A stretch of DNA of 31,147 nucleotides from a virus: the UHGV virus genome UHGV-0038737; one strand, 5' to 3'. Numbering within the stretch: position 1 is the first letter of the stretch; each line of letters opens with the position of its first letter. Below are positions 3,203 through 27,009 of this stretch, piece after piece. The position numbers and the translations under genes were made by a program. The notes beneath the pieces were generated by a model. The model had not been told where the DNA came from and did not search any database. It saw nothing but the letters and a program-made list of their open reading frames with translations.

Positions 3203-3877
3203 TCAATCATAGGCCGCTGTATTTATGGCGGTTAATGAAATGCCAGTATTCGTTCCCCCTCCAGGTGAACCTGCCCCAGTGGAGGTCCCCCCTGCGTTTA
3301 TCCTCGTATTGGCCCCGTCAAACCTGCATGAAGAATAAGCATTTATCGTGTAGATAGTCGGAGGCTGGGTTGAATTATTCACAATGATGGTCTGACCCAA
3401 CTGAGCAGGTGCAACGGCCCATGACCCGCTCAGCGTCTGGTCAATATTTATCCCGCCGTTTGCACCAGGCGTGCCAACCGTCTGCAGGTCTGATAGCACA
3501 CGGGACTCATTAGTTAACACAAGCTTTCCGCTCGCATCCCATATTGCCAAACCCCATTTCGGTAATATCTGCGGGAATATGGCAAAAACGTACGCCGTTA
3601 AAGTGAAACTTTGGTTGTAGGGATTAACACCAGCAACATACACATTACCGCCGTTCCTGTAAGACATAACCGGAGTGGGCTGTGCTGTATTGGTGGTTTT
3701 GATAAAAACCATCACTGGGTAATCAGCGTTTAAAGCGATATTTTGAGCAACCTGCTGAGAACTGCCATTCGCGGATGAATTGAAGGTATACTTCCCGTAA
3801 AGACAGAAAGGCGTTGATTGTGGCGTTACAAAGGGATTCCCGTTATCCATTAATATCATCGCGCCAAATTCGGCCAT
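3203..3877 (-). CDS. Hypothetical tail-region protein (224 aa)
   Basis: ORF translationally coupled to the upstream gene (TAATG overlap at 3877). Gly/Asn/Thr-rich beta-type composition, downstream of J. Function unknown. Confidence 0.6.
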   Translation of the reverse strand: MAEFGAMILMDNGNPFVTPQSTPFCLYGKYTFNSSANGSSQQVAQNIALNADYPVMVFIKTTNTAQPTPVMSYRNGGNVYVAGVNPYNQSFTLTAYVFAIFPQILPKWGLAIWDASGKLVLTNESRVLSDLQTVGTPGANGGINIDQTLSGSWAVAPAQLGQTIIVNNSTQPPTIYTINAYSSCRFDGANTRINAGGTSTGAGSPGGGTNTGISLTAINTAAYD

Positions 3878-15449: not shown

Positions 15450-15875
15450 TCAGACTTCGAAAGCCAGCCCCTTTGCGATCAAGTCGTCGGCATCCTGTTC
15501 AGATACGCGGATAATCACACCAGGCTCTACGATAGATACCGGCTCGTTACGCGTGGCATGCAGAGCGTCAATATGCAGGGTGGCCAGCGTTTCTACTGAT
15601 ACCAGGTCACCCGTTGTGGCCGATTCCGTTTTTACTTTTGCCACGTTAGCAACATTGTTGTCGGTGCTGTCGGTGCTGTCGGTGCTGTCGGTGCTGTCGG
15701 AAGCATTCTGCACGCCGTTTTCACCGTCAACTGACCCGGCATTGCCATCCAGTTCCTCTTCAAGCTCAGCAATACGCATCGTCAGTTCCTGAATGGTGCC
15801 GCTGGTACTGACCTCGCGGTTAAGCTGGGTCCCAAGTTCATTCAGGCGGGCGACCAGCTTTTCTTTTTCTGTCAT
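15450..15875 (-). CDS. FI: DNA packaging protein FI
   Basis: MTEKEKLVARLNELGTQLNREVSTSGTIQEL...HIDALHATRNEPV resembles lambda gpFI. ATG at 15875 with GGAG RBS (the ORF track begins at 15911). Confidence 0.88.
   Translation of the reverse strand: MTEKEKLVARLNELGTQLNREVSTSGTIQELTMRIAELEEELDGNAGSVDGENGVQNASDSTDSTDSTDSTDNNVANVAKVKTESATTGDLVSVETLATLHIDALHATRNEPVSIVEPGVIIRVSEQDADDLIAKGLAFEV
15661..15696 (-). repeat. 9-bp tandem repeat (4 copies) inside FI encoding (Asp-Ser-Thr)n
   Basis: TCGGTGCTG x4 on the plus strand, read as GAC AGC ACC x4 on the coding strand (SDSTDSTDSTDSTD). Confidence 0.9.
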
Positions 15876-23110: not shown

Positions 23111-23267
23111 GGATCGCCGGAAAGGACCCGAAAAGATAATGATTATCAATTGCAAGTTATTCCCTTCAAGATAATGCCACCTGGACGGCAATGGCATTGG
23201 CCCGTGTCTGTAATCCATTCATCGGCTGCTTTTTAAGCTCAGATGTATTGCTTTTTGTTTTGCAGAA

Positions 23268-23504
23268 CTACCACCTTGTTACTGCAATCGGAATTGGTTT
23301 CCTGGTAGAGTTCCAAACCCAAATTTTCAGTGGAGGATGGACGGTCATTTTATCCCGTAAAAAATCGCCTGTTGCTGTATCTGGAATGTTTTCAGACTCA
23401 GCAAAACTGATTGATGCCGGGTCTAAAACAGATATCAGTGCGCTATTCGTACCATCCGTTATTTGAACTGGCTCACTACCGATTGTCATTCTTTCTGTTG
23501 CCAT
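23268..23504 (-). CDS. Hypothetical protein (78 aa)
   Basis: ORF MATERMTIGSEPVQITDG... with ATG at 23504 immediately after a G8 tract (the ORF track starts at 23597). Last gene of a three-gene cluster. Confidence 0.45.
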   Translation of the reverse strand: MATERMTIGSEPVQITDGTNSALISVLDPASISFAESENIPDTATGDFLRDKMTVHPPLKIWVWNSTRKPIPIAVTRW

Positions 23505-23507
23505 GTG

Positions 23508-23515
23508 CCCCCCCC
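23508..23515 (-). repeat. G8 homopolymer tract (C8 on plus strand) in the RBS region of the 78-aa ORF
   Basis: Minus strand TAG-GGGGGGG-CAC-ATG: the tract begins in the stop of the 94-aa gene and ends 3 nt before the next ATG. Confidence 0.9.
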
Positions 23516-23799
23516 TACGCCAGTACGTATTCAGGTGTTGATGGATTGATGATAAATTTCTGCGCAGCTTCAGGTATGAGGCCATAGATAACATCAATGT
23601 GATAACCGTCCTTTAGGGTCGGCTCCTTTATCACATTTCCGGCCTCGTCATATTCACCGTCACTGTTATACAGAACGCCCCGCACAGAAAACTGAATAGA
23701 CTTAGTCGGTACTGCCCATCCAGCCCCCTCAGACCACCAACCAGTGGCTGCTCTCGCAGTAGCCTCATCAGGGAATCGTAAATATGTCAGCCTGCTCAT
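23515..23799 (-). CDS. Hypothetical protein (94 aa)
   Basis: ORF MSRLTYLRFPDEATARAATGWWSEGAGW... with start overlapping the stop of the upstream 356-aa gene. No family recognised. Confidence 0.5.
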   Translation of the reverse strand: MSRLTYLRFPDEATARAATGWWSEGAGWAVPTKSIQFSVRGVLYNSDGEYDEAGNVIKEPTLKDGYHIDVIYGLIPEAAQKFIINPSTPEYVLA

Positions 23800-24869
23800 T
23801 ATCTTATGTACTCGATTCGTTGGATGTAGCGCTTACCCCAGTCAGTCGTTGATGCTGGTATTTCAACCTCTTCTGCACCGCCAAAATCGATTTGCTTGGT
23901 CGTTGCGTCGCTATAGTGCAAACGCACAGAGGTTGCAATTCTGCTGGGGTTCTTGATGTTCGCAAAAGCCTTGGATCGTGTTGCAGCAGCGCTGGATGCA
24001 ATGATTGGTGATGTTGAACAGGGATTATCTTCAAGCTGCAGTGTTGCAAACTCCAGAGAATATGATGAATCTCCAACGTAGGTTTCGCCACCGGGTGTGA
24101 TACTGGTTGATGGCCCCATATAGATTATATAGGAAGGTGACTTTACGGATTTTGTCGCAATAACAGTCCCGGAAAACCGTATTACGCCGGGAGAGATAAA
24201 CTCTGCGGTTGTAGTGAGTCCATCAGAAATACCGGTGAATGACACTGACGCATCAGAGATATTTATTACAGATAAAATCTGCGCATCAACAATCAATTGG
24301 TGCGCTAAAATGACAAATGCATACCCTCTCGACTTCTCTGTTTTTTGAATAAAACCGCTAAAGCTGTACTTCTTTCCCGCCGTAACTTTCTGCGGACATG
24401 CAGCGTAGTGTGGCCCTTCCAAATTAGATTCTGTAAGCCTGAATGTCGGGGTATTCAGTATTCTTTCTGCGGAATTACTTATTGCCGCACGCACTGCCCC
24501 TACCCCCCCCGTATAGTAGGTGTTGGTCGCCTGCACTTCAGGCTCATGCCTTCCAACTGCCACACCATTTCGGTACTCAAGCGGCCATACGTCAGGTGCA
24601 GCGAACTGAATAGTTCCGTCAGCTGAGTAGTATGCATGGTTGCTTGCGCAGCTGAACGAAACCCGATAATCCAGTGCAGAGGAGGTAAGATCGATATCGC
24701 TAAGGTCAACCCACTCGCCAGGCGGCAGCGTCATAACATTAGCACCGGGAATAACTATGCCGGATGGAAAACTATCTGATGATGCGCCAAGCTCAGTCAC
24801 ATCAGGGATAAATAAGCCTTTCATAATTGCACCACAAGCGATGATAAATATTTCAAATAAAACCGGCAT
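23799..24869 (-). CDS. Hypothetical beta-rich protein (356 aa; start could be Met16 at 24824)
   Basis: Long ORF with Ser/Thr/Gly-rich composition and no recognisable catalytic or nucleotide-binding motif. Hydrophobic N-terminus. Contains an in-frame G8 tract. Confidence 0.55.
   Translation of the reverse strand: MPVLFEIFIIACGAIMKGLFIPDVTELGASSDSFPSGIVIPGANVMTLPPGEWVDLSDIDLTSSALDYRVSFSCASNHAYYSADGTIQFAAPDVWPLEYRNGVAVGRHEPEVQATNTYYTGGVGAVRAAISNSAERILNTPTFRLTESNLEGPHYAACPQKVTAGKKYSFSGFIQKTEKSRGYAFVILAHQLIVDAQILSVINISDASVSFTGISDGLTTTAEFISPGVIRFSGTVIATKSVKSPSYIIYMGPSTSITPGGETYVGDSSYSLEFATLQLEDNPCSTSPIIASSAAATRSKAFANIKNPSRIATSVRLHYSDATTKQIDFGGAEEVEIPASTTDWGKRYIQRIEYIR
24503..24510 (-). repeat. G8 homopolymer tract inside the 356-aa coding sequence
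   Basis: Coding strand ACG GGG GGG GTA (T-G-G-V). Eight consecutive G. Confidence 0.9.
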
Positions 24870-25183: not shown

Positions 25184-25912
25184 TCAGGCCGCCGCATAGA
25201 GCAATTTCATCTGCCCTTTTACCTGGAATGCCGACATGCAACGCGCTTCGAAATCACGATAATCAGAGCACCCATTGGCAATGCTGGTAACGGCAATGAT
25301 CTGTCGCTCAACCAATGTCAGCGCGTCAGGTTTAAGGTGCTGATGGATTTTGTCTCCCGCAGCCAGCCGTCTTTTAACCTCTGCATATACTTCTGGTGGT
25401 AATACCGGGCCATATACCCACTTGGCACTGATCATCCCAAATAGTGCGGGGCGACGACCTGGTCGATGACGGGGCAGCCCTGACATTTTGAACATCGCAG
25501 AATAAAACGGATCGCTAAACCTCTTTTCCCATGGCTGAGATTTATCCAGAAGGAAAATAGCCTTTATTCTTTCATCGTCGATATGATGAACGGAACCCTG
25601 AATGATTGCGTCAATTTGCTCATCACACCAGATCTCAAAATCTACAGAAAGCCATCGAGCAAATCTGACCGCCAGTTTTGGGTGAAGCCATGTTCCGCCG
25701 CCACGGTCTTTGCGAGCGCGGCTGGTTTTTACATATGTGATATTCCCATATCTACTCTTTAACGCCTCGATGTAACGGACAGTCTCAGGAAGCCTAAGCC
25801 ACTGAGCCGGCTCCTTGTTGAACTTGTCAGCTGCCGCAGTCGCGTCAAACCAGCCATCGTCAGAAAAACGCATGGGATGGCCTTCGAAATCAATCGGGAT
25901 GATATTGGACAT
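25184..25912 (-). CDS. KilA-N domain protein (Bro-N/KilA-N N-terminus, P63C-like C-terminus)
   Basis: MSNIIPIDFEGHPMRFSDDGWFDATAAADKFNKEPAQWLRLPETVRYIEAL is a typical KilA-N N-terminus. The ORF track extends to 25987 and the upstream Met cannot be excluded. Confidence 0.7.
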   Translation of the reverse strand: MSNIIPIDFEGHPMRFSDDGWFDATAAADKFNKEPAQWLRLPETVRYIEALKSRYGNITYVKTSRARKDRGGGTWLHPKLAVRFARWLSVDFEIWCDEQIDAIIQGSVHHIDDERIKAIFLLDKSQPWEKRFSDPFYSAMFKMSGLPRHRPGRRPALFGMISAKWVYGPVLPPEVYAEVKRRLAAGDKIHQHLKPDALTLVERQIIAVTSIANGCSDYRDFEARCMSAFQVKGQMKLLYAAA

Positions 25913-26061
25913 CGTATTTACCTTTTTGGTGATATGAGCCAGTTCTCGCAGACATGGACAGCCCAAGAGCGGCACGATGTAAGCCACCGTCCTGTCTCTG
26001 TCTCATATCCCGAAAAGCTCTTGGTTGATATGCGCACGAGAATGCGCGGTTTACTGCGGAT

Positions 26062-26088
26062 ATAAAAAAGCCCCGCATAGGCGAGGCT
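26062..26088 (-). terminator. Rho-independent terminator after the protease gene
   Basis: Minus-strand RNA GCCUCGC-CUAU-GCGGGGC (one G-U pair) followed by UUUUUUAUAU, 19 nt after the stop at 26107. Confidence 0.55.
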
Positions 26089-26106
26089 GGAATCAGACAG
26101 GGGGGA

Positions 26107-27009
26107 TTAAGACTGGATATTCCAAATCATTGCGTTACCGTTATGATTTTCAATGATTTTTGCCAGTGGTGCTCCACCAAAAGAATGCATGTAGCTGTGA
26201 TGTATAGTCAAAACCAAATCTTGAAGTACTTGATCACTTTCAAGTTCGGTAACATTCAACCCAATTTTCTGCGCCTTATCAAAATGAATATGACGCGAGT
26301 GGGTATAGGTTGTGTGATGGTTGTTTAACTCTGAACAAACATGTGTTGCTTTTGATTCTGCCTCAGGATCATTATCAAACATGCCTGTCATAAGCCAATG
26401 CTTAACAATCTCATTTGCCCATTTGATTGCTTTCTCACACTCGCCGATGATCGTCGGGTTTAGCTTTTGAAGAATGAACTGCCACATCTGAACAGCTGCG
26501 GGATTTTGAAAAATTTCCGTCTGCGCACGATTCCATTCTTCAATGATGGCATGGGTGGAGAAACCGTTGAACTGAGGATCAATTGGGCCAATGTTGGACT
26601 GTTTACCCATGATGATTTCATTGGCACAACATGCAAGCATAGTTCCGCAGGACATTGAAATCATAGGAACAATTGCTCTGATGTTAGTTCCAAACTTCGA
26701 CCTTAAGTAATGCCCGATTGATTCCAAAGCGGCAATATCACCACCTGGAGTATGAAGTATCAAATCCAACCCTTTTGATACATCTAAACCATTGATGGCT
26801 GTCATCAACCCGTTCTTATCATCATCAGTCATCTGAGTAAGATGGCGTACTTCTGCACCACCATGCTGTAACCACCCTGAGTAATATGTGATTACATTTC
26901 TTCCAGTATGATTCGAAAGTTGAGATAAGTATTTACGGCGAACCTCATCCATAGGACTTTTATGGGCGAGAGCCGTTATCTCGCCCAGTACGTCGCTCCA
27001 ATTAGGCAT
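26107..27009 (-). CDS. ClpP-fold serine protease, SDH / S49-like family
   Basis: Motifs GLDLILHTPGGDIAALESIGHYLRSKFG, IRAIVPMISMSCGTMLACCANEIIMG and GPIDPQ are characteristic of the ClpP/crotonase-fold SDH serine proteinase family as recalled. AT-rich gene, translationally coupled to the upstream small ORF. Confidence 0.8.
   Translation of the reverse strand: MPNWSDVLGEITALAHKSPMDEVRRKYLSQLSNHTGRNVITYYSGWLQHGGAEVRHLTQMTDDDKNGLMTAINGLDVSKGLDLILHTPGGDIAALESIGHYLRSKFGTNIRAIVPMISMSCGTMLACCANEIIMGKQSNIGPIDPQFNGFSTHAIIEEWNRAQTEIFQNPAAVQMWQFILQKLNPTIIGECEKAIKWANEIVKHWLMTGMFDNDPEAESKATHVCSELNNHHTTYTHSRHIHFDKAQKIGLNVTELESDQVLQDLVLTIHHSYMHSFGGAPLAKIIENHNGNAMIWNIQS

What the first reader, a model, noticed from the sequence alone, without database searches (positions are those of the whole stretch)
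24503..24510. G8 homopolymer tract inside the 356-aa coding sequence (possible slipped-strand switch)
Eight consecutive G on the coding strand (ACG GGG GGG GTA) lie within the 356-aa ORF. Tracts of this length slip during replication, and a one-base change would frameshift the gene, so it could act as an on/off contingency switch. Such tracts are uncommon in enterobacterial coding DNA.
Basis: seen in the sequence. Interest (0 to 1): 0.5.

Follow-up and report, generated by a model that had tools for sequence, protein, structure and literature searches.

The report
Slippery G8 run in phage fibre gene
A run of eight G's inside a tail-appendage-like gene of a lambda-like E. coli prophage has repeatedly gained or lost bases in nature, so about 7% of sequenced copies encode only a truncated stub, which makes it a real mutational on/off site although nothing shows it evolved to be a switch.

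Summary
C8 on the + strand at 24503-24510 is G8 on the coding strand (ACG GGG GGG GTA, codons 120-122) of the 356-aa ORF 23799-24869(-). The tract length varies among near-identical prophage copies: G8 in most, and G7, G9 and G6 in others. The intact product is listed in 126 index blocks and the off-frame fragment in 9 contigs, about 7% OFF. Off-frame states lie on six SNP backgrounds. Three G7 backgrounds have identical G8 counterparts, and the G6 copy's nearest G8 relative differs at one marker. That gives at least 6 independent length changes against 6 substitutions in about 1,350 bp. Two 37-kb prophages with zero substitutions differ only here and in a 9-bp repeat. G7 puts a TAG directly after the tract (122-aa stub); G6 and G9 give 130/131-aa stubs. 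The gene (HK639 gp74 family) is homologous to the unexplained appendage of Shigella phage Sf11's distal tail protein and to the GTA head-spike fibre, so it is probably an accessory glycan-binding virion part. A second G8 (23508-23515), at the ribosome-binding site of the gene after next, varies from G6 to G10. Other alleles of the gene lack the coding tract, ON predominates, and codon usage shows no selection for the tract. My verdict is a genuine hypermutable on/off hotspot whose adaptive role is unproven.

The parts
24503..24510 (-). G8 homopolymer (tract 1), codons 120-122 of the fibre-like gene; the hypermutable site
   Evidence: Length is G8 in most copies and G7, G9 or G6 in others.
23799..24869 (-). 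356-aa ORF (HK639_74 family; probable true start M16 at 24824, giving 341 aa); accessory tail-appendage / spike-fibre-like late gene
   Evidence: phrog_11600; HK639_74; NF048003 GTA_spike_fiber, aa 116-299; Sf11 gp17 residues 166-455; RcGTA Rcc01080.
24522..24869 (-). Conserved N-terminal part (aa 1-116, ...GRHEPExQxTN); this is all that remains when the tract is out of frame
   Evidence: Alignment A1. P0004 and P0023 are 97% identical over this third only. pLDDT is above 90 for residues 56-115 (numbered from M16 as 41-100).
23973..24524 (-). Hypervariable central domain (aa ~116-299), GTA-spike-fibre / CBM-like beta-sandwich; the tract lies in its first codons
   Evidence: profile positions ~111-300 recur 4-8 times in large proteins; phage baseplate proteins, CBM6-like folds.
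24500..24502 (-). TAG that comes into frame immediately after the tract when it is G7 (or G10), ending the product at residue 122
   Evidence: PGAP and other callers split the gene here in the G7 copies.
24492..24494 (-). In-frame GTG (Val) that gene callers use as the start of the 231-aa C-terminal fragment in off-frame copies; reinitiation here is speculative
23508..23515 (-). Second G8 (tract 2): the G of the TAG stop of the 94-aa gene plus G7, 3 nt upstream of the ATG of the 78-aa gene; a G-rich Shine-Dalgarno of variable length
   Evidence: Variants are G4AG, G5AG, G6, G7, G8, G9, G10 and G3TG4.
23515..23799 (-). 94-aa gene (HK639_75, phrog_18574); its ATG overlaps the TAA of the 356-aa gene (TAATG)
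   Evidence: and 36 (listed in 625 index blocks, always downstream of an allele of the ~350-aa gene).
23268..23504 (-). 78-aa gene (HK639_76, phrog_4772), last gene before cos/Nu1

Best explanation
The G8 run is a genuine slipped-strand hot spot inside a non-essential, late-expressed gene for an accessory tail-appendage or spike-fibre-like protein of an HK639-type lambdoid prophage. Gain or loss of one or two G's during replication shifts the reading frame at codon 122. G7 brings a TAG into frame immediately (122-aa stub). G6 and G9 give 130/131-aa stubs. In each case only the conserved N-terminal part is made, without the variable glycan-binding-like domain or the conserved C-terminus. Lysogen and phage populations therefore carry a heritable, and in principle reversible, minority of OFF genomes. 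I think the tract most likely arose incidentally in this one young allele and persists because the gene is dispensable, rather than having been selected as a switch. It still supplies standing on/off variation on which selection for adsorption or host range can act.

Shown: the tract, its rarity, natural length polymorphism with repeated independent changes, the frameshift consequences, and the protein's homology.

Inferred: replication slippage as the cause, reversibility, virion location, late expression, and any effect on adsorption.
For: 1. Polymorphism among near-identical copies. Four complete E. coli genomes and the window differ over 1.8 kb by one substitution plus indels confined to the two G tracts.

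2. ECCRA-119 and YZMc10-2 prophages have 0 substitutions in 37,363 bp. They differ only by G7/G8 and by one 9-bp repeat unit in FI.

3. Exact-product look-ups: G8 products in 53+11 contigs, G7 fragments in 4-5, G9 in 2, G6 in 1. On one index, the intact product is in 126 blocks and the off-frame 231-aa fragment in 9 contigs, from 8 different samples including six Logan run assemblies and an NCBI third-party assembly.

4. Haplotypes: G7 lies on four SNP backgrounds, three of which have identical G8 counterparts. G9 and G6 lie on two more backgrounds. This gives at least 6 independent events against 6 substitutions in about 1,350 bp.

5. Frameshift consequences were computed and appear as split CDS calls.

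6. Rarity of such runs, and literature stating that indel rate rises exponentially with run length and that G.C8 runs are hot spots in E. coli (PMC8510543).

7. Accessory or structural nature of the protein: homology to the Sf11 gp17 appendage (profile E 1e-29), the RcGTA head spike fibre (E 3.6e-13) and E217/Pa193 baseplate proteins. The homologous unit lies within genes annotated 'minor tail protein' in Kagunavirus-type phages.

8. Signs that the tract is incidental: it is absent from ten other alleles, all copies of this allele differ by at most 7 nt, and codon usage is unremarkable (P about 0.016 for this peptide; 1 of 49 Gly-Gly dipeptides encoded GGGGGG against 2.6 expected).

9. A parallel case: in lambda, loss of the accessory side tail fibres under selection came mostly from frameshifts at short homonucleotide runs in stf (PMC2762979).
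Against: No read-level data were available, so within-population heterogeneity and true switching rates are unknown. In the sample of the 24 longest contigs, the only two off-frame copies were complete genomes (platform not checked). EC2001 has both tracts shortened relative to its nearest draft relative, which is what long-read homopolymer under-calling would produce, so some individual calls may be errors. The comparative data imply a rate only about 10^3 times that of an ordinary site, which is low for a classical contingency locus. Two G8 runs in one 1.6-kb module, against none in about 195 kb of background, is more than an 'incidental' view easily explains. The protein's presence in virions and its dispensability are inferred, not shown.
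Confidence: 0.58

Rival explanations
1. An evolved contingency (phase-variation) locus. The tract is maintained by selection because stochastic on/off switching of an accessory receptor-binding appendage lets the phage hedge between adsorption or host-range phenotypes, as polyG tracts do in Campylobacter phages.
For: Length changes are repeated and independent. The gene class, a variable glycan-binding-like virion appendage, fits. The tract sits at the first codons of the variable domain, with stops close by in both alternative frames. A second hypervariable G tract lies in the same module, while such runs are absent from about 195 kb of background. An OFF lineage (haplotype D) is found in three unrelated runs, so OFF is stably inherited. 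There is a precedent in Campylobacter phages (Sorensen 2021, cited in PMC10877375) and a demonstrated fitness trade-off for lambda side fibres (PMC2762979).
Against: The tract is allele-specific and absent from all other alleles sampled. The allele is so young (at most 7 differences) that persistence of G8 says nothing about selection. ON is about 93%. G8 is at the short end for switching in a mismatch-repair-proficient host. Codon usage shows no enrichment. There is no evidence of reversion or of a phenotype.
Confidence: 0.3
2. The length differences are sequencing or assembly errors at a difficult homopolymer, and the real tract is always G8.
For: In the sample of the 24 longest contigs the only off-frame copies were two complete genomes. 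EC2001 has both G tracts shortened relative to its nearest draft relative. No reads could be inspected, and the sequencing platform of each assembly was not checked.
Against: G7 appears in six further samples: five Logan run assemblies and an NCBI third-party assembly. G9 appears in a sixth Logan run and in two ENA contigs. G7 is consistently associated with particular SNP haplotypes, for example three different runs sharing 1221G and an interrupted tract 2, which fits inheritance rather than random error. No other homopolymer (A7, T7, C6) differs between the compared prophages.
Confidence: 0.05
3. Programmed recoding. G GGG GGG acts as a slippery heptamer for -1 ribosomal frameshifting (or RNA polymerase slips on the run), so the G8 allele itself makes both the full-length protein and an N-terminal stub in a set ratio, as dnaX does.
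For: The heptamer fits the X XXY YYZ pattern in the zero frame. The -1 frame stops after 9 codons and the +1 frame stops at once.
Against: There is no stimulatory structure downstream (RNA fold z = -0.5). The motif is absent from all other alleles of the gene. G/C runs are poor substrates for transcriptional slippage compared with A/T runs (general knowledge). This reading also does not explain the DNA-level polymorphism.
Confidence: 0.04

Closest known systems
Hypermutable polyG tracts in Campylobacter phage genes (Sorensen et al. 2021, Cell Rep 35:109214; seen here only as a citation in PMC10877375)
   Same: A poly-G run inside a phage structural or receptor-binding-type gene; slippage creates ON and OFF subpopulations of the phage.
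   Different: From memory, those phages carry several tracts that are conserved across related phages, and switching and phenotypes were shown experimentally in a host that lacks MutS/MutL-type mismatch repair. Here there is one coding tract, in one allele, G8 only, in a temperate coliphage whose host has mismatch repair, and no experiment.
Simple-sequence-repeat contingency loci of Haemophilus, Neisseria and Campylobacter
   Same: A homopolymer in a coding sequence, frameshift on/off, length polymorphism among close relatives, and a surface-interaction gene.
   Different: Classical loci show broad length distributions, roughly balanced ON/OFF states, measured high rates and conservation of the repeat. 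Here about 93% of copies are G8 and the inferred rate is modest.
Lambda side tail fibre gene stf: Ur-lambda versus laboratory lambda, and frameshift loss under selection (PMC2762979)
   Same: An accessory, dispensable fibre of a lambdoid phage switched off by one-base indels at short homonucleotide runs, with a known adsorption and fitness trade-off.
   Different: A different protein and locus (stf lies after J; this gene lies between the lysis genes and cos). The lambda runs are short and the events were selected in the laboratory, whereas here the variants are natural.
C-terminal appendage of Shigella siphophage Sf11 distal tail protein gp17 (PDB 9OCC; PMC12724387)
   Same: Sequence homology over residues 59-354 of the window protein to gp17 residues 166-455 (E 1e-29 with the family profile).
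   Different: In Sf11 the unit is fused to the Dit ring protein and its function is unknown. Here it is a free-standing protein with its own ~58-residue N-terminus, encoded away from the tail genes.
RcGTA head spike fibre Rcc01080 (PDB 6TB9; NCBIfam NF048003; PMC10218006)
   Same: The central variable domain (aa ~111-304) matches this domain, and the GTA fibre is reported to bind capsular polysaccharide.
   Different: Only the central domain is shared. The attachment site (head versus tail) is unknown here, and no binding data exist.

Membership tests
SSR-mediated phase-variable (contingency) locus | A simple repeat long enough to be hypermutable, placed where a length change alters expression | tested here: met
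   G8 lies within the ORF. G.C8 runs are indel hot spots in E. coli (PMC8510543). Non-G8 lengths give stops at residues 122-131.
SSR-mediated phase-variable (contingency) locus | Repeat-length polymorphism among closely related genomes, arising repeatedly | tested here: met
   G6, G7, G8 and G9 occur among copies with 0-2 other differences; at least 6 independent events on distinct haplotypes.
SSR-mediated phase-variable (contingency) locus | Heterogeneity within a clonal population and reversible switching at a high measured rate | not testable with these tools
   This needs read-level or experimental data. The comparative estimate is only about 10^3 times the per-site substitution rate.
SSR-mediated phase-variable (contingency) locus | The repeat is retained or over-represented across homologues (evidence of selection for mutability) | tested here: not met
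   Ten other alleles have no G run of 6 or more in the gene. All tract-bearing copies are at most 7 nt apart. The codon test is neutral.
SSR-mediated phase-variable (contingency) locus | ON and OFF states give different, selectable phenotypes | not testable with these tools
   Only inferred, from homology to virion appendages and glycan binders.
GTA_spike_fiber domain proteins (NCBIfam NF048003) | Score above the curated cut-off for the domain model | tested here: met
   43.9 bits against a cut-off of 36, aa 116-299. The PDB profile hit to 6tb9 Rcc01080 has E 3.6e-13.
Virion tail-tip / baseplate accessory protein | Physical presence in the virion | not testable with these tools
   Indirect evidence only: homologous unit fused to Dit in Sf11 and within 'minor tail protein' genes of Kagunavirus-type phages; fold hits to E217 and Pa193 baseplate proteins; position in the late transcript.
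Programmed -1 ribosomal frameshift site | Slippery heptamer plus a downstream stimulatory structure, conserved among homologues | tested here: not met
   The heptamer G GGG GGG is present, but the downstream fold has z = -0.5 and the motif is absent from other alleles.

The most novel reading that the evidence does not exclude
The tract, possibly together with the second G tract at the neighbouring ribosome-binding site, is a selected phase-variation device of a temperate lambdoid coliphage. It would stochastically equip or strip virions of an accessory glycan-binding tail appendage, hedging between fast adsorption or extended host range and escape from non-productive binding. As far as my literature searches found, this would be the first repeat-driven phase-variable receptor-binding function in an enterobacterial phage, and it would operate in a mismatch-repair-proficient host.
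Probability: 0.28. Interest if true: 0.72.

Novelty: new member of a known kind. Interest (0 to 1): 0.58.

Why it matters
Repeat-driven on/off switching is well established for bacterial surface genes and, more recently, for Campylobacter phage receptor-binding genes. E. coli and its phages are generally thought to rely on invertases, methylation switches or retroelements instead. Here, public data alone show that a homopolymer in a coliphage appendage gene has flipped repeatedly in nature. That gives a ready experimental system, since HK639 is an isolated phage with the same G8. It could be used to ask whether temperate coliphages use slippage to vary adsorption. It could also help assign a function to a large, uncharacterised family of appendage proteins, including the unexplained domain on the Sf11 distal tail protein. 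There is also a practical point for annotation: split or 'hypothetical' CDS pairs at this locus are tract-length variants of one gene.

Tried and rejected
1. The first AlphaFold run with 22 sequences gave mean pLDDT 46.6 and was not used. A 64-sequence alignment gave a usable model (pTM 0.75).

2. Flank-pattern scans with a variable gap found only HK639 and one IMG/VR contig (both G8) in viral contigs, and nothing in the JGI metagenomes or the GTDB species genomes. This allele is rare outside E. coli isolate and run assemblies.

I worked around this through neighbouring genes and the 231-aa C-fragment.

4. Pfam gave no hit for the three module proteins. The 94-aa and 78-aa proteins have no meaningful match to solved structures.

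5. Programmed frameshifting was considered and rejected (absent from other alleles).

6. A codon-usage test for selection on the tract was neutral.

7. The idea that 24869 is a lipoprotein-type start (IIAC) was rejected by inspection of the sequence: the N-region is short and uncharged, and M16 is the conserved start.

8. A G-quadruplex reading was rejected by inspection: only G8 and one G4 block are present.

9. Literature searches for poly-G or homopolymer switching in lambdoid or E. coli phages found nothing. A Salmonella paper concerned host genes only.

Full report
**The observation**

The + strand reads ...CCCCTACCCCCCCCGTATAG... with eight C's at 24503-24510. On the - strand this is G8 inside the 356-aa ORF 23799..24869, read as ACG GGG GGG GTA (T-G-G-V; the tract starts at nucleotide 360 of the gene). 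The conserved start is probably M16 (ATG at 24824, giving 341 aa), because M16/G18/L19 are nearly invariant in the family and PGAP uses that start in one genome.

Under an iid base model, about one G/C run of 8 or more is expected per window, so the run is not striking on that basis. Real enterobacterial DNA is depleted in such runs, however. I found none in 100 kb of E. coli chromosome (iid expectation about 2), none in 65.8 kb of flanks of related prophages, and none elsewhere in the window. Foster and colleagues describe 8-G.C runs as genome outliers and indel hot spots, with indel rate rising exponentially with run length (PMC8510543). A second G8 lies only 1 kb away at 23508-23515.

**Context**

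The window is the late region of a lambdoid prophage on the - strand: Q, holin, lysozyme, then accessory genes, then Nu1/A terminase, head and tail genes. The tract-bearing gene is the first of a three-gene module:
- the 356-aa gene;
- a 94-aa gene whose ATG overlaps the first gene's stop (TAATG);
- a 78-aa gene.

The module sits between the lysis genes and cos/Nu1. Phage HK639 has the same module (HK639_74/75/76) at 97.9% DNA identity at the right end of its genome. No convincing promoter precedes the module, and a terminator-like hairpin follows the upstream SDH-protease gene. The default reading is expression from the Q-antiterminated late transcript; this is an inference.

**What the protein is**

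- Pfam gives nothing. PHROGs places it in phrog_11600 (unknown function), with a weak match to a tail protein family.
- NCBIfam finds a GTA_spike_fiber domain at aa 116-299.
- A profile of 22 homologues hits the Sf11 distal tail protein gp17 (PDB 9occ, E 1e-29), aligning residues 59-354 with gp17 166-455. It also hits the RcGTA head spike fibre Rcc01080 (E 3.6e-13).
- In the Sf11 paper, gp17 residues 3-165 form the Dit ring and tailspike adaptor. The remainder is 'a large extra appendage... of currently unknown function' (PMC12724387).
- The RcGTA head spike fibre is reported to bind capsular polysaccharide (PMC10218006).
- Among isolated phages, only HK639 has the unit free-standing. In Kagunavirus-type phages it lies within a gene annotated 'minor tail protein'.
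- An exhaustive profile search finds 12,045 representatives. In many of them the central segment (profile positions ~111-300) is repeated 4-8 times, so it is an autonomous module.
- A 64-sequence AlphaFold model (pTM 0.75) is confident for the conserved N and C parts. Its best fold matches are baseplate proteins of Pseudomonas phages E217 and Pa193, followed by CBM-like domains.
- The family alignment shows a conserved N-terminal part (to ...GRHEPExQxTN, aa 116), a hypervariable middle and a conserved C-terminus.

The G8 codons lie four residues into the variable domain. I infer an accessory, probably glycan-binding, virion appendage. Its presence in particles has not been shown.

**Does the tract vary?**

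Only 4 of 5,426 complete E. coli genomes carry the segment. Over 1.8 kb they differ from the window by one substitution, plus indels that fall only in the two G tracts. Tract 1 is 8, 8, 8, 7, 6 and tract 2 is 8, 8, 8, 8, 7. PGAP splits the gene into two CDS in the G7 and G6 genomes.

The prophages of ECCRA-119 and YZMc10-2 have no substitution in 37,363 bp. They differ only by G7 versus G8 and by one unit of a 9-bp repeat in FI. HK639 has G8.

I predicted the products for G5-G11 and looked them up by exact sequence:

| Tract | Product | Contigs |
|---|---|---|
| G8 | 356 aa / 341 aa | 53 / 11 |
| G7 | 122 aa N-fragment / 231 aa C-fragment | 4 / 5 |
| G9 | 131 aa N-fragment | 2 |
| G6 | 130 aa N-fragment | 1 |
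| G10, G11 | 123 aa / 357 aa | none |

Sampling through an upstream neighbour gave 21 G8 copies, one G7 and one G6 among 23 long contigs that carry this allele. The two off-frame copies were the complete genomes already seen, which raised the artefact question. EC2001 in particular has both tracts shortened relative to its nearest draft relative.

A look-up of the 231-aa C-fragment then returned nine contigs from eight samples: Logan assemblies of DRR829169, ERR12083577, SRR15321620, SRR28298293, SRR33526475 and SRR17405964, an NCBI third-party assembly, and CP029242. Seven samples are G7 and one is G9. On the same index the intact product is in 126 blocks, so about 7% of copies are off-frame.

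**Independent events**

Over the 1,366-bp segment covering the gene and the 94-aa gene there are six substitution columns, leaving aside HK639's own seven differences and a mosaic stretch in L042. These define the backgrounds:

| Haplotype | Marker | G8 copies | Off-frame copies |
|---|---|---|---|
| A | reference | window, L023, L024, L025, L041, L043, L044 | L034 (G7) |
| B | 449C | L021, L040 | L033, L036 (G7) |
| C | 1171C | L027, L046 | L035 (G7) |
| D | 1221G, T inside tract 2 | none sampled | L032, L037, L038 (G7) |
| E | 903T | L029 (also 913G) | L026 (G6) |
| F | 263A | none sampled | L039 (G9) |

That is at least six independent length changes against six substitutions in about 1,350 bp. 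One 8-nt tract has changed as often as all the other sites together, which is roughly 10^3-fold per site. Haplotype D occurs in three unrelated runs, so the OFF state is inherited. This pattern is hard to reconcile with random assembly error, although individual calls such as EC2001 may still be errors.

**Consequences of a length change**

- **G7 or G10:** TAG (24500-24502) comes into frame immediately, giving 122/123 aa.
- **G6 or G9:** nine extra codons follow, giving 130/131 aa.

Only the conserved N-terminal part would be made. An in-frame GTG 5 nt after that TAG, preceded by the G run, is where callers start the 231-aa fragment. Reinitiation there is conceivable but speculative.

**The second tract**

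23508-23515 consists of the last base of the TAG stop of the 94-aa gene plus seven G's, 3 nt before the ATG of the 78-aa gene. It is a G-rich Shine-Dalgarno. Across relatives it reads GGGGAG, GGGGGAG, G6, G7, G8, G9, G10 or GGGTGGGG. It is therefore also unstable. It cannot shift a reading frame and can at most tune initiation.

**Evolved switch or incidental hot spot?**

Against an evolved switch:
- Ten other alleles of the gene have no G run of 6 or more in the gene.
- All tract-bearing copies differ by at most 7 nt, so retention of G8 is uninformative.
- ON predominates.
- With this phage's codon usage, P(G8 | T-G-G-V) is about 0.016, and 1 of 49 Gly-Gly dipeptides is encoded GGGGGG against 2.6 expected.

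For an evolved switch:
- The gene class fits.
- The tract is placed at the start of the variable domain, with nearby stops in both other frames.
- Two unstable G runs lie in one module.
- There is a precedent of polyG tracts in Campylobacter phages (Sorensen 2021, cited in PMC10877375).
- In lambda, loss of the accessory side fibres is advantageous in structured habitats and arises mostly through frameshifts at homonucleotide runs (PMC2762979).

Programmed ribosomal frameshifting on G GGG GGG was considered. There is no downstream structure (z = -0.5) and no conservation of the motif.

**Verdict**

The run is a real, naturally active slipped-strand hot spot that turns an accessory tail-appendage-like gene off in a minority of copies. 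It meets the operational tests for a phase-variable locus that could be run here: a repeat in the ORF, recurrent length polymorphism, and frameshift on/off. It fails the one test that speaks to selection, which is conservation or enrichment of the repeat. I put about 0.58 on an incidental but functional hot spot, about 0.3 on an evolved contingency switch, and about 0.05 each on artefact and on programmed recoding. My literature searches found no description of such a site in a lambdoid or E. coli phage, so I class it as a new member of a known kind.

Noticed in passing
window 23508-23515 (- strand): A second G8 run, overlapping the TAG stop of the 94-aa gene and lying 3 nt upstream of the ATG of the 78-aa gene (a G-rich Shine-Dalgarno). 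Among relatives it reads G4AG, G5AG, G6, G7, G8, G9, G10 or G3TG4, so it is also length-unstable.
   Followed up: yes
window 15659-15700 (FI-like gene, - strand): A perfect 9-bp tandem repeat (TGTCGGTGC, 4.7 copies) whose copy number differs among otherwise identical prophages: the window has one or two units fewer than L007 and L008. It is the only other difference between two 37-kb prophages with zero substitutions.
   Followed up: partly
window 23191-23466 (+) versus 23268-23504 (-): PGAP annotates a 91-aa ORF on the + strand (WP_040092035.1), where HK639's annotators and PHROGs (phrog_4772, E 7e-18) support the antisense 78-aa ORF. By my own arithmetic from the difference positions, the two frames share third-codon positions, so substitution patterns cannot separate them.
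   Followed up: partly
L011-L020, L029, L042 versus window 23268-24869: The module (a ~350-aa variable gene, the 94-aa gene and a ~80-aa gene, sometimes with extra genes) is mobile. The identical 94-aa protein is listed in 625 index blocks, behind many different alleles of the first gene and in front of at least four terminase types (Nu1, Terminase_4, Hendrixvirinae TerS, Terminase_2).
   Followed up: partly
window 23799-24869 versus HK639_74 (L005): All 7 nucleotide differences between the window allele and HK639's are non-synonymous, and 6 of them lie in the variable central domain. This hints at diversifying selection, but the numbers are too small to test.
   Followed up: no
window 25184-27009 and 26069-26088 (- strand): Two accessory genes sit between the lysis cassette and the module: an SDH-family ClpP-like serine protease (300 aa) followed by a strong terminator-like hairpin, and a KilA-N/P63C protein. 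HK639 has a Rha-like regulator at that place, and some relatives lack the protease.
   Followed up: no
L022 (JAPUTB010000002.1) 3313-3576: In one prophage only the first 87 codons of the fibre-like gene remain. They are directly followed by a different tail module (PhiTE-type tube, tail assembly chaperone, SLT tape measure), which looks like a recombination breakpoint inside the conserved N-terminal part.
   Followed up: no
P0094 (116 aa) and P0150 (106 aa): Representatives consisting of the N-terminal part alone exist for other alleles. P0094 ends exactly at ...HEPEVQSDN, the junction with the variable domain. I did not determine whether these are contig ends, truncations or real short genes.
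   Followed up: no
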